This document shows, in pieces, positions 62,319 through 64,000 of a stretch of 64,000 bases of DNA. The position numbers and the translations under genes were made by a program. The stretch's first letter is position 1, and every line of letters starts with the position of its first letter. The notes beneath the pieces are model-generated. The model was not told the DNA's origin, made no database searches, and saw nothing but the letters and a program-made list of their open reading frames with translations. Origin of the DNA: Bacteroidales bacterium (GTDB lineage: Bacteria; Bacteroidota; Bacteroidia; Bacteroidales; ML635J-15); NCBI GenBank assembly GCA_045112395.1, contig JBGUHW010000021.1, forward strand, positions 4,482 to 68,481, written 5' to 3'.

Positions 62319-62326
62319 TATTTTTG
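62319..62326 (+). promoter_or_regulatory. -7 box-like TAttTTTG upstream of the NifU-like gene
   Basis: TAnnTTTG 69 nt before ATG 62395, but immediately followed by a hairpin plus T-run. Confidence 0.25.
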
Positions 62327-62394: not shown

Positions 62395-63096
62395 ATGATT
62401 TATTCACACGAAGTGCAACACATGTGTTGCGTGAAAAAAGGTCCGAATCACGGTCCGGCTCCCATTCCCGAAGAAGGCAAATGGGTAAAGGTCAAGGAAG
62501 TAAAGGACATATCTGGCTTGACACACGGCATTGGCTGGTGCGCACCACAGCAGGGAGCCTGCAAGCTCACTCTCAATGTAAAGGATGGTATTATCGAGGA
62601 AGCATTGGTTGAAACTATCGGATGCTCGGGCATGACACACTCGGCAGCAATGGCAGGTGAAATCCTTGTCGGAAAGACTTTGCTCGAAGCTCTCAACACC
62701 GACCTCGTATGCGATGCCATCAATACCGCAATGCGCGAACTTTTCCTGCAGATTGTTTACGGACGCACCCAGTCGGCTTTCTCCGAAGGTGGCCTTGTAA
62801 TCGGTGCCGGACTAGAAGACTTAGGCAAGGGCCTTCGTTCGCAGATTGCAACAATGTTTGCTACCAAGGAAAAAGGTGTTCGCTACCTTGAAATGGCCGA
62901 AGGTTATGTAACAAAGATTGCTCTCGACGAAGACGATGAAGTTTGTGGTTACGAATTTGTTCGCCTCGGCGTTATGATGGACCTCATAAAGAAAGGTACC
63001 GATGCAAACGAAGCACTAAAGAAGGCAACTGCAAGTTATGGTCGTTTCTCAAAGGAACAGGGCGCAGTGAAATTCATAGACCCGAGAATCGAATAA
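62395..63096 (+). CDS. NifU/IscU N-terminal-domain-like Fe-S scaffold-like protein
   Basis: 233 aa. GIGWCAPQQGACKLTLNVKDGIIEEALVETIGCSGMTHSAAMAGE resembles the IscU/NifU-N Cys pattern. Confidence 0.7.
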   Translation: MIYSHEVQHMCCVKKGPNHGPAPIPEEGKWVKVKEVKDISGLTHGIGWCAPQQGACKLTLNVKDGIIEEALVETIGCSGMTHSAAMAGEILVGKTLLEALNTDLVCDAINTAMRELFLQIVYGRTQSAFSEGGLVIGAGLEDLGKGLRSQIATMFATKEKGVRYLEMAEGYVTKIALDEDDEVCGYEFVRLGVMMDLIKKGTDANEALKKATASYGRFSKEQGAVKFIDPRIE

Positions 63097-63124
63097 AAAT
63101 AGACAATTGATAATTGATAATTGG

Positions 63125-63150
63125 TAGCATCGTGCCATGGCGCGATGCTA
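63125..63150 (+). other. Intercistronic hairpin between the NifU-like and GGGtGRT genes
   Basis: tagcatcg/cgatgcta 8-bp stem with a 10-nt loop. Flanked by outer inverted words ataattggt / accaattat and short 7-8-bp repeats. Confidence 0.5.
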
Positions 63151-63192
63151 AAAAAACAAACCAATTATTAATTAAATTAAATTAAAAAGATT

Positions 63193-64000
63193 ATGATTAG
63201 GGAAGTAAAATTTGAAAGTCAAGAACGCCGCATGGAGAACATTACCAAGGTTCTCAATTCATACGGCATAGCTTCTATTGAAGAAGCAAACAAGATATGC
63301 GACCAGTACGGAATCGACCCTTACCTCGAATGCGAACAGACACAAAACATCTGCTTCGAGAATGCAAAGTGGGCTTACGTTGTTGGTGCAGCAATAGCAA
63401 TTAAGAAAGGATGCAAGACCGCAGCTGAAGCCGCTGAGGCAATCGGAGAAGGTCTGCAGGCATTCTGCATAAAAGGTTCTGTAGCCGACGACCGTAAAGT
63501 TGGCCGCGGACATGGTAACTTGGCAGCTCGTCTGCTGAGCGAAGAAACACAGTGCTTTGCTTTCCTCGCAGGTCACGAATCTTTTGCTGCTGCCGAAGGT
63601 GCAATTAAGATTGCCGAAATGGCAAACAAAGTACGCAAGAATCCGCTCCGCGTAATCCTTAACGGACTTGGCAAGGATGCTGCAATGATAATTTCGCGAA
63701 TCAATGGTTTCACATACGTTCAAACCGAGTTCGACTACTACTCAGGCGAACTTAAGGAAGTACGCCGCAAGGCTTATTCCAATGGACCGCGTGCAAAGGT
63801 CAACTGCTATGGTGCCGATGATGTTCGCGAAGGCGTTGCTATTATGTGGAAGGAAGATGTCGACGTGTCAATTACTGGCAACTCGACCAACCCGACCCGT
63901 TTCCAGCACCCAGTTGCAGGTACATACAAGAAGGAAAGAATACTTGCTGGCAAGAAGTATTTCTCGGTGGCATCGGGCGGTGGAACAGGCCGTACTCTTC
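63193..64000 (+). CDS. GGGtGRT-family protein (function unknown); C-terminus lies outside the window
   Basis: Not in the supplied ORF track. Hand translation from ATG 63193 is open for 269 codons to the window edge and ends ...KKYFSVASGGGTGRTL, the family's signature motif. Confidence 0.8.
   Translation, partial: MIREVKFESQERRMENITKVLNSYGIASIEEANKICDQYGIDPYLECEQTQNICFENAKWAYVVGAAIAIKKGCKTAAEAAEAIGEGLQAFCIKGSVADDRKVGRGHGNLAARLLSEETQCFAFLAGHESFAAAEGAIKIAEMANKVRKNPLRVILNGLGKDAAMIISRINGFTYVQTEFDYYSGELKEVRRKAYSNGPRAKVNCYGADDVREGVAIMWKEDVDVSITGNSTNPTRFQHPVAGTYKKERILAGKKYFSVASGGGTGRTL

What the first reader, a model, noticed from the sequence alone, without database searches (positions are those of the whole stretch)
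62395..64000. NifU-like scaffold gene followed by a GGGtGRT-family gene that the ORF track misses
Seen: ORF 62395-63096 has an IscU/NifU-N-like Cys pattern (GWCAPQQGAC..., ...TIGCSGMTHSAAMAGE). Ninety-six nt later an ATG at 63193 opens a frame that I translated by hand. It stays open for 269 codons to the window edge and ends ...FSVASGGGTGRTL. It is absent from the supplied track, apparently because it has no in-window stop; the antisense ORF 63259-63723 listed there is its shadow. Established: GGGtGRT is the eponymous motif of a conserved protein family with no assigned function. Inference: the pairing with a dedicated NifU-like protein suggests an Fe-S-dependent or Fe-S-maturing two-component module of unknown biochemistry. 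The product also has conserved-looking GRGHGN and AGHESFAAAEGA segments that could be ligand or cofactor sites.
Basis: partly seen in the sequence, partly recalled or inferred. Interest (0 to 1): 0.6.

Follow-up and report, generated by a model that had tools for sequence, protein, structure and literature searches.

The report
Conserved IscU-like plus GGGtGRT gene pair
The window ends in a two-gene operon, an IscU-like cysteine-rich protein followed by a GGGtGRT protein, that is always paired and very strongly conserved in gut anaerobes, is already catalogued, and still has no known function.

Summary
ORF 62395-63096 encodes a 233-aa protein with an IscU/SufU-like core. The frame opening at 63193 is a true GGGtGRT gene (Pfam PF14057, E 2e-140), cut by the window edge at codon 269 of about 336.

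The pair is the orthologue of Bacteroides thetaiotaomicron BT0174/BT0173. That locus is already described as highly expressed, iron-induced and of unknown function.

New here:
- The two genes are adjacent, same strand and same order, in all 80 evaluable species-representative genome loci from four bacterial groups. The same holds in a methanogen and in a divergent clade.
- Both are under very strong purifying selection: 72-84% amino-acid identity with near-saturated third codon positions.
- The small protein fails the IscU scaffold hallmarks but keeps five invariant Cys. GGGtGRT has no invariant Cys and no PDB fold match.
- A divergent clade places the pair among phosphoglycerate-mutase-type and phosphatase genes.

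My best reading is an obligate two-subunit, probably Fe-S-containing metabolic enzyme that binds a phosphorylated ligand, rather than an Fe-S assembly machine. The chemistry is unproven.

Side finding: a family of tyrosine integrases uses the 3' end of this gene as an attachment site.

The parts
62319..62326 (+). Candidate Bacteroidota -7 promoter box (TATTTTTG, fits TAnnTTTG), 69 nt upstream of the first ATG, inside the 421-nt non-coding gap after the NUDIX gene
   Evidence: Read directly from the sequence. The consensus is from my own knowledge of Bacteroides promoters. This is an inference and was not tested.
62395..63096 (+). Small-subunit gene: 233-aa IscU/SufU-fold protein with five family-invariant Cys (C11, C49, C56, C77, C106) plus His44, and a C-terminal half of about 120 aa with no known family
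   Evidence: ORF. NifU_N scores 21.6 bits for the whole protein and 22.9 bits for the N-terminal 126 aa. hhalign against E. coli IscU gives 86.5% probability over residues 57-101. The top 45 Foldseek PDB hits are all IscU/SufU. Invariant residues come from a 13-sequence alignment spanning the mainstream, archaeal and divergent clades.
63097..63192 (+). Intercistronic spacer (96 nt) containing a long stem-loop at 63111-63174. The spacer is lineage-specific: close relatives have spacers of 22-33 nt, or a different insert.
   Evidence: RNA fold gives -30 kcal/mol, z = -8.2 against 200 shuffles. The palindrome core is unique in the window. The alignment with L001-L004 shows it is an insertion. No Rfam family matches.
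63193..64000 (+). Large-subunit gene: GGGtGRT protein, codons 1-269 of about 336, truncated by the window edge just after the GGGTGRT motif (residues 262-268)
   Evidence: Translation. Pfam PF14057 E 2.1e-140. Full-length relatives are 336 aa (P0006 at 97% identity; L002 with 268/269 identical).

Best explanation
The two genes encode the two subunits of one obligate cytoplasmic complex of strict anaerobes. It is most likely an abundant, iron-dependent (probably Fe-S-containing) metabolic enzyme, not an Fe-S assembly machine.

The 233-aa subunit keeps the IscU/SufU core fold but has lost the features of a transient scaffold. It has five invariant Cys and one invariant His, so I infer that it holds a permanent cluster or metal/sulfur site.

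The GGGtGRT subunit has no invariant Cys. It is predicted to have an N-terminal helical domain and a Rossmann-like alpha/beta domain. Four invariant loops each follow the C-terminal end of a predicted strand: FLAGHESF, NGLGKDAA, ITGNST and ASGGGTGRT. I infer that these converge on one crevice that binds a phosphate-bearing ligand, either a phosphorylated substrate or a nucleotide cofactor.

Long invariant glycine-rich segments are modelled with low confidence in both proteins (GGGtGRT 262-310, small subunit 122-150). They probably order only in the complex and build the shared active site.

The likeliest metabolic neighbourhood is lower glycolysis or phosphoglycerate-type compounds.

Shown: family membership, strict synteny, purifying selection, IscU-like fold, conserved residues, iron regulation and high expression (the last two from the literature). 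Inferred: complex formation, Fe-S content, phosphate-ligand binding and the metabolic role.
For: - Synteny: the NifU-like gene lies directly upstream on the same strand in every one of the 80 GTDB loci that has upstream DNA. These carry Bacteroidota, Firmicutes, Collinsella and Treponema labels. The same holds in a Methanobacteriaceae contig and in five distinct divergent-clade loci, where the two ORFs overlap by 8-11 nt. No third gene is conserved across phyla.
- Selection: amino-acid identity is 72-84% while third-codon identity is only 35-49%, in host genomes of 27-61% GC. One relative differs at 1 of 269 residues yet has only 75% third-position identity. This indicates old copies under extreme constraint, as expected for a tightly packed complex.
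- Small subunit: IscU/SufU fold with C11, C49, C56, C77, C106 and H44 invariant. The desulfurase neighbour, Asp39 and LPPVK are all lacking.
- Large subunit: no invariant Cys, many invariant His/Asp/Glu/Arg/Lys, and the conserved loops placed after predicted strands 121-125, 153-159, 225-228 and 257-260. The weak Foldseek hits are all Rossmann-type nucleotide or sugar-phosphate enzymes.
- Iron: BT0173-74 is down 11- to 12.8-fold under iron depletion, more than ferritin or rubrerythrin in the same table. In C. pasteurianum the protein follows the same Fe+ pattern as [FeFe]-hydrogenase-1.
- Abundance: it is highly expressed in vivo in distant gut taxa, and 'NifU' was reported as expressed in several of the same taxa.
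- Metabolic link: BT0173-4 transposon mutants, like pfkA mutants, raise Roc in glucose and grow normally. The divergent clade keeps the pair next to ApgM (517 bits against cutoff 489), GpmI (656 against 331), a His_Phos_1 protein, a phosphoglycolate-phosphatase-like HAD protein and an HTH regulator, despite rearrangements.
Against: - No biochemical data exist for either protein.
- The phosphoglycerate-mutase neighbourhood is confined to one small divergent clade. None of the 81 mainstream loci, nor the window, has it. It could reflect a clade-specific specialisation.
- The B. thetaiotaomicron phenotype is modest (2-fold) and indirect.
- The small-subunit model is poor (pLDDT 49.7). The eponymous GGGTGRT region is modelled with pLDDT below 50, so the 'one crevice' picture rests on secondary-structure order and not on a confident 3D model.
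- No complex prediction could be run.
- Iron-replete induction and high abundance fit an iron or Fe-S storage role equally well.
Confidence: 0.45

Rival explanations
1. A dedicated Fe-S cluster assembly, carrier or repair system. The NifU-like protein is a scaffold on which clusters are built. GGGtGRT is its partner, either a chaperone-like or iron-donating factor or the specific recipient.
For: The small protein has IscU/SufU-like sequence and fold. NCBI names members 'iron-sulfur cluster assembly scaffold protein'. Expression tracks iron supply. One Treponema-labelled locus has hydG/hydF/hydE immediately downstream.
Against: No cysteine desulfurase, or any other assembly gene, is a conserved neighbour in 81 loci. 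Scores lie far below the IscU/NifU/SufU equivalog cutoffs. Asp39 aligns with Ala, and the LPPVK chaperone-binding segment and His105 are absent. Assembly systems are usually induced by iron or cluster shortage (my own knowledge), whereas this pair is strongly repressed by iron depletion. Mutants grow normally in minimal glucose medium. The hyd adjacency is seen in one lineage only.
Confidence: 0.2
2. An iron, sulfur or Fe-S storage or buffer protein. It would be a very abundant complex made when iron is plentiful and switched off to spare iron.
For: Abundance in vivo is very high. Repression under iron depletion is stronger than for ferritin in the same data set. It is dispensable in vitro.
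Against: Five Cys per 569 residues of complex is a very low storage capacity. The dense set of invariant His/Asp/Glu/Arg/Lys residues and Gly-rich loops in GGGtGRT looks like a catalytic or ligand-binding site. The divergent clade's linkage to phospho-mutases and phosphatases has no obvious storage logic.
Confidence: 0.1
3. A SufU-like sulfur-relay system. The Cys-rich subunit carries a persulfide (or Zn plus persulfide), and GGGtGRT uses it to thiolate a phosphorylated small molecule or cofactor precursor.
For: The best Foldseek hits include B. subtilis SufU, with and without persulfide. There is an extra invariant N-terminal Cys11. Rumen proteomics groups the pair with cysteine synthase and O-acetylhomoserine thiol-lyase in the same abundance class.
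Against: No sulfur donor enzyme is linked. No ATP-activating PP-loop or rhodanese domain is detected. The iron dependence of expression is unexplained by a zinc or persulfide carrier.
Confidence: 0.1
4. A tubulin/FtsZ-like nucleotide-binding, polymer-forming protein. This was suggested by GGGTGRT resembling the tubulin signature GGGTG[ST]G and GMGNNPMVG resembling the FtsZ T3 loop.
For: Motif resemblance only, recalled from memory. Extreme sequence conservation is typical of cytoskeletal proteins.
Against: hhalign of the family against E. coli FtsZ gives probability 0.8%, and the two motifs occur in the opposite order. No FtsZ or tubulin appears among the top 50 Foldseek hits.
Confidence: 0.02

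Closest known systems
Bacteroides thetaiotaomicron BT0174-BT0173 locus ('NifU homolog' plus 'GGGtGRT protein')
   Same: Same two families in the same order. Bacteroides copies are 83-85% identical to the window proteins (L016, L018). The window pair is therefore an orthologue of this described but uncharacterised locus. What is known: it is iron-repressed on depletion, transposon insertions raise Roc in glucose, and mutants grow normally.
   Different: Nothing functional is known to differ. The window copy has a 96-nt hairpin-containing spacer between the cistrons, where most relatives have 7-33 nt. It is also truncated by the window edge.
IscU / SufU / NifU N-terminal domain Fe-S scaffold proteins (PF01592, TIGR01999, TIGR01994)
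   Same: The core beta-hairpin plus Cys-capped helix is shared. Residues 57-101 align to E. coli IscU 41-86 with 40% identity, including the GC(S/G) ligand Cys. Essentially all structural neighbours are IscU/SufU.
   Different: It is almost twice as long, with an unrelated conserved C-terminal half. Scores fall at or below the family cutoffs. Cys positions in the first loop are shifted (C49 and C56 flank the column of IscU C37). Asp39 is Ala. LPPVK and His105 are deleted. It has two extra invariant Cys. There is no desulfurase partner; instead it is always paired with GGGtGRT.
Two-subunit, iron-regulated Fe-S hydro-lyases of anaerobes (for example L-serine dehydratase alpha/beta, class I fumarate or tartrate hydratase alpha/beta). 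This is an analogy only, from my own knowledge.
   Same: A small operon of two co-translated subunits, abundant in fermenting anaerobes, expressed when iron is plentiful and dispensable when an iron-free alternative route exists.
   Different: There is no sequence or fold relationship. In those enzymes the cluster ligands sit in the catalytic protein, not on an IscU-like subunit. No substrate is known here.

Membership tests
Pfam PF14057 GGGtGRT | Whole-protein HMM score above the gathering threshold (27 bits) | tested here: met
   467.8 bits, E 2.1e-140, profile positions 1-263 of 327.
Pfam PF14057 GGGtGRT | Eponymous GGGTGRT motif | tested here: met
   Residues 262-268 of the translation. 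The motif is invariant in the family alignment.
Pfam PF14057 GGGtGRT | Full-length protein of about 330-350 aa including the conserved C-terminal HPDN...SSSVPAHVE...GMGNNP segment | not testable with these tools
   The window ends at codon 269. Relatives identical at 268/269 residues (L002) or 97% identical (P0006) are 336 aa and carry that segment.
IscU/NifU-N Fe-S scaffold (PF01592; TIGR01999/TIGR03419/TIGR01994) | HMM score at or above the curated cutoff | tested here: not met
   Pfam gives 21.6 bits against 22 for the whole protein. The isolated N-terminal 126 aa reach 22.9, which is borderline. The NCBIfam equivalogs score 26.8 against 187.9, 21.5 against 192.4 and 17.9 against 92.5.
IscU/NifU-N Fe-S scaffold | Three cluster-ligand cysteines (E. 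coli C37, C63, C106) | tested here: inconclusive
   C77 aligns with C63. The C37 column holds Gln53, with invariant C49 and C56 flanking it. C106 lies outside the significant alignment but sits at the N-terminus of a predicted helix, as IscU C106 does. All of these Cys are invariant in the family.
IscU/NifU-N Fe-S scaffold | Asp39, and the His105 plus LPPVK chaperone-recognition segment | tested here: not met
   Asp39 aligns with Ala55. There is no LPPVK or preceding His: the sequence runs NTDLVCDAIN with the segment deleted.
IscU/NifU-N Fe-S scaffold | Genomic partnership with a cysteine desulfurase (IscS/NifS/SufS) | tested here: not met
   No neighbour family other than GGGtGRT is shared across phyla in 81 loci. 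Inspected neighbours are unrelated housekeeping genes.
IscU/NifU-N Fe-S scaffold | IscU-type fold | tested here: met
   The top 45 Foldseek PDB hits are IscU/SufU chains, mostly at probability 0.9-1.0. Core superpositions cover 50-89 residues at 0.9-3.2 A. Caveat: the model has a mean pLDDT of only 49.7.
Tubulin/FtsZ GTPases | Collinear T1-T7 nucleotide-binding loops including the GGGTG[ST]G signature | tested here: not met
   hhalign probability is 0.8%. The only matched stretch is 13 residues and is out of order.
Rossmann-type dinucleotide-binding domains | Strand, then GxGxxG/A loop, then helix, with an acidic residue at the end of the next strand | tested here: inconclusive
   G158-L-G160-K-D-A163 follows predicted strand 153-159 and starts helix 161-171. 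Asp181 ends strand 174-181. Foldseek matches to Rossmann enzymes reach probability of only 0.66 or less, with E 0.013 or higher. Binding was not tested.

The most novel reading that the evidence does not exclude
The pair is a previously unrecognised, near-universal two-subunit Fe-S enzyme of anaerobe central carbon metabolism. It would act on a phosphoglycerate-type intermediate, for example as an iron-dependent alternative to, or branch from, a lower-glycolysis step, with its cluster held on a permanently recruited IscU-fold subunit. That would be a new enzyme architecture and would fill a hidden reaction in the core metabolism of Bacteroides, Prevotella, Clostridia and gut methanogens.
Probability: 0.15. 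Interest if true: 0.85.

Novelty: new member of a known kind. Interest (0 to 1): 0.5.

Why it matters
Few proteins combine this degree of conservation and this level of expression in gut and rumen anaerobes with a complete lack of assigned function. Across phyla the pair stays about 72-84% identical over the aligned part, even though synonymous sites are near saturation.

Assigning its reaction would change metabolic models of dominant gut genera such as Bacteroides, Segatella/Prevotella, Alistipes, Ruminococcus and Collinsella. It would also help explain part of their iron-sparing response.

The concrete leads produced here make the problem experimentally approachable in the genetically tractable B. 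thetaiotaomicron:
- an obligate two-subunit unit;
- five invariant Cys on an IscU-fold subunit;
- conserved loops that probably form a phosphate-ligand site;
- a phosphoglycerate-mutase gene neighbourhood in a divergent clade.

For the window itself, nothing is unusual. It carries an ordinary orthologue.

Tried and rejected
- Sequence search of the PDB with the protein and with a family profile found nothing for GGGtGRT.
- Scanning sub-domains of both proteins against Pfam at E up to 10 returned only PF14057 and NifU_N. The C-terminal half of the small protein matches nothing.
- The tubulin/FtsZ idea, prompted by GGGTGRT and GMGNNPMVG, was rejected by hhalign.
- A riboswitch or leader RNA that could name a ligand was sought with Rfam, in the window and in 11 diverse loci. 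Only tRNAs and a group II intron fragment were found.
- A conserved third gene, such as a desulfurase, was sought by clustering all neighbour ORFs of 81 loci. None was found.
- Recent horizontal transfer was considered as the explanation for the cross-phylum identity. It was rejected because third codon positions are near saturation and copies lie in host genomes of very different GC content.
- Self-processing at the invariant SSS, as in pyruvoyl enzymes, was considered. The only hint against it is a monoclonal antibody to the Segatella copri protein whose name contains '35K', which may indicate a full-length-sized band. I did not verify this.
- The small-subunit structure prediction was too poor (pLDDT 49.7) to map the Cys geometry.
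Full report
**1. The observation**

- The + strand ORF 62395-63096 (233 aa) is present and contains the quoted cysteine-bearing strings.
- An ATG at 63193 opens a frame that runs without a stop for 269 codons to the last base of the window and ends ...FSVASGGGTGRTL.
- It is missing from the mechanical ORF list only because ORFs that run off the source are not listed. The antisense ORFs 63259-63723 and 63401-63604 are its shadows.
- Pfam places the 269-aa product in PF14057 GGGtGRT with 467.8 bits (E 2.1e-140), covering profile positions 1-263 of 327.
- Both N-termini match those of homologues.
- The missing 67 residues can be read from a relative identical at 268 of 269 positions (L002, 336 aa).
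- The closest relatives are rumen and gut Bacteroidales/Paludibacteraceae MAGs.
- In a close relative the pair is followed by tgt and lptF/G, which are unrelated genes. In the window it is preceded by a NUDIX gene and a 421-nt gap.
- It is therefore a self-contained two-gene operon.

**2. The small protein**

It is IscU-like but is not an IscU.

- The whole protein scores 21.6 bits on NifU_N against a cutoff of 22. The first 126 residues alone reach 22.9.
- The NCBIfam IscU/NifU/SufU equivalogs score 18-27 bits against cutoffs of 92-192.
- A family profile aligned to E. coli IscU gives 86.5% probability, but only over residues 57-101.
- The AF2 model is poor (pLDDT 49.7). Even so, its top 45 PDB neighbours are all IscU or SufU chains, and the core superposes at 0.9-3.2 A.
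- Cys77 equals IscU Cys63. The column of IscU Cys37 holds Gln53, flanked by Cys49 and Cys56. Asp39 is Ala55. The LPPVK/His105 segment is missing.
- In an alignment spanning Bacteroidota, Firmicutes, Collinsella, Treponema, a methanogen and the divergent clade, C11, C49, C56, C77, C106 and H44 are invariant.
- The C-terminal half of about 120 aa matches no family.

**3. The large protein**

- GGGtGRT has no sequence relative in the PDB.
- The AF2 model has pTM 0.81 and mean pLDDT 75.7. It has no significant structural neighbour in the PDB: best E 0.013, TM 0.28 or lower. The weak hits are Rossmann-type enzymes.
- The model shows a helical N-domain (10-115), an alpha/beta domain (121-260), a low-confidence stretch at 262-310 that is nevertheless the most conserved part of the protein, and a C-terminal helix.
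- No Cys is invariant. Many His, Asp, Glu, Arg and Lys residues are.
- The invariant loops FLAGHESF, NGLGKDAA, ITGNST and ASGGGTGRT each follow the C-terminal end of a predicted strand.
- In alpha/beta folds that is where ligand sites lie, and glycine-rich loops at helix starts typically bind phosphate groups. This is an inference from general structural knowledge.
- NGLGKDAA fits the GxGxxA fingerprint, but that remains a lead, not a result.
- A resemblance of GGGTGRT to the tubulin/FtsZ signature was tested and rejected (hhalign probability 0.8%).

**4. The pairing and its conservation**

Of these, 80 loci were kept.
- Every one of these GTDB loci that has any upstream DNA carries the NifU-like gene directly upstream on the same strand. 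The one exception begins at the second base of the contig.
- The same holds in a Methanobacteriaceae contig and in the divergent clade.
- Clustering all neighbour ORFs found no third family shared across phyla.
- At 50% identity the whole family collapses to only a few full-length clusters.
- Against the window, amino-acid identity is 72-84% for Segatella, Bacteroides, Rikenellaceae, Clostridium, Ruminococcus, Collinsella and Treponema copies. Third-codon identity is only 35-49%, and the host genomes range from 27 to 61% GC.
- This indicates old divergence under extreme purifying selection, not recent transfer.

**5. What is already known**

- The B. thetaiotaomicron orthologues BT0173-BT0174 are listed among genes down 11- to 12.8-fold under iron depletion (PMC10434189).
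- Transposon insertions in BT0173-4 were recovered, together with pfkA and an M16 peptidase locus, in a screen for loss of glucose-dependent inhibition of the regulator Cur. The effect was 2-fold and growth was normal (bioRxiv 10.64898/2026.04.10.717545).
- The C. pasteurianum protein is 7.1-fold higher with excess iron, the same pattern as [FeFe]-hydrogenase-1 (PMC5395762).
[quoted passage not shown] They call it poorly characterised (PMC11204068, PMC7035244, PMC12078515).
- The pair is therefore a known unknown, and the adjacency itself is not new.

**6. A new lead**

- A small divergent GGGtGRT clade is about 51-55% identical to the mainstream. It keeps the NifU-like gene, with overlapping ORFs.
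- In all five distinct loci with enough flanking DNA, it sits among phospho-mutase and phosphatase genes:
  - an ApgM-type phosphoglycerate mutase (517 bits against cutoff 489);
  - a His_Phos_1 protein;
  - in one case GpmI (656 bits against cutoff 331);
  - in another case a phosphoglycolate-phosphatase-like HAD protein;
  - an HTH regulator;
  - a conserved 317-332-aa membrane-anchored protein of unknown family.
- The set is retained despite inversions and reordering.
- None of these genes occurs near the 81 mainstream loci or in the window.
- Together with the B. thetaiotaomicron link to glycolysis-dependent signalling, this points, weakly, to a phosphorylated three-carbon metabolite.

**7. 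Verdict on mechanism**

- I favour an obligate two-subunit, iron-dependent metabolic enzyme (confidence 0.45). The IscU-fold subunit would carry a permanent cluster, and GGGtGRT would bind a phosphate-bearing ligand.
- An Fe-S assembly role (0.2) is disfavoured by four points: the missing desulfurase, the lost scaffold hallmarks, repression under iron shortage, and normal mutant growth.
- A storage role (0.1) and a sulfur-relay role (0.1) cannot be excluded.
- The window copy is an ordinary orthologue, so I rate novelty as 'new member of a known kind'.
- The family itself is a high-value uncharacterised target, which supports a moderate interest score.

**8. Side observations**

- Scanning IMG/VR with the family alignment found about 45 viral contigs that carry only the last 54-57 codons of the gene.
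- The homology boundary is sharp, at codons 282-283.
- In at least 30 contigs a tyrosine integrase (Arm-DNA-bind_5, SAM-like and catalytic domains) starts roughly 250-600 nt downstream.
- This is the classic arrangement of an element that integrates into the 3' end of a conserved gene and brings a replacement end.
- It probably explains the stray 3' fragments seen in L012, L017 and L026. It may also contribute to contigs breaking near codon 270, as with the 270-aa partial protein P0009 on a 69-kb contig. Whether the window's own contig breaks there cannot be told.
- The chimeric or duplicated database proteins look like a separate assembly artefact.
- The window's 96-nt intercistronic spacer contains a very stable, lineage-specific hairpin.

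Noticed in passing
L094-L173 (IMG/VR loci), e.g. L137:5001-6586, L144:5001-6757, L145:5001-6622; corresponds to gene codons ~282-336, just beyond window base 64000: The 3' end of the GGGtGRT gene appears to be an attachment site for a family of temperate phages or integrative elements. About 45 viral contigs carry only the last 54-57 codons. The homology boundary is sharp, at the codons for Gly282-Met283. In at least 30 contigs a tyrosine integrase (Arm-DNA-bind_5, SAM-like and catalytic domains) starts roughly 250-600 nt downstream on the same strand.
   Followed up: yes
L012:7123-7182, L017:8159-8248, L026:10044-10172: Short extra copies of the GGGtGRT 3' end lie 0.1-3 kb downstream of the intact gene in three GTDB loci. 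They are probably att-site duplications left by the integrating elements described above.
   Followed up: partly
window 63111-63174: There is a very stable stem-loop (-30 kcal/mol, z = -8.2) in the 96-nt spacer between the two cistrons. It is an insertion absent from close relatives: L001, L003 and L004 have short spacers, and L002 has a different 146-nt insert. It matches no Rfam family and is unique in the window. Its function is unknown. It could be an mRNA processing or stability element, or a small inserted palindromic element.
   Followed up: partly
L082:5997-10606, L085:2046-8580, L088:391-7412, L090:842-6141, L092:301-5405: The divergent GGGtGRT clade sits in a conserved cluster. It contains an HTH regulator, an ApgM-type phosphoglycerate mutase, the NifU-like gene, GGGtGRT, a 317-332-aa N-terminally membrane-anchored protein of no known family, and a His_Phos_1 protein. 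GpmI or a HAD phosphatase is present in some loci.
   Followed up: partly
L048:7572-11335: In the Treponema-labelled locus the pair is followed by genes for HydG-like (radical SAM plus BATS), HydF and HydE-like (radical SAM) [FeFe]-hydrogenase maturases. This was seen in one lineage only and may be coincidental.
   Followed up: no
P0001, P0005, P0241 (database proteins): Several of the top-scoring database 'proteins' (397-494 aa) contain internal tandem duplications of 60-170 residues of GGGtGRT, with small differences between the copies. These are most likely metagenome mis-assemblies of co-occurring strains rather than real longer variants.
   Followed up: no
L085:3938-4105: A group II intron D1-D4 fragment (Rfam RF02001, 43.3 bits against gathering score 32) lies between the ApgM gene and the next ORF in one divergent-clade locus.
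   Followed up: no
L006, L024, L048, L065 (record titles): Some GTDB records labelled Azospirillum sp. CAG:239 or Clostridia bacterium carry copies that are 86-87% identical to the Bacteroidales query and, for L024, indistinguishable in identity from Segatella copri. This suggests MAG binning contamination, so taxon labels of individual loci should be read with care.
   Followed up: no
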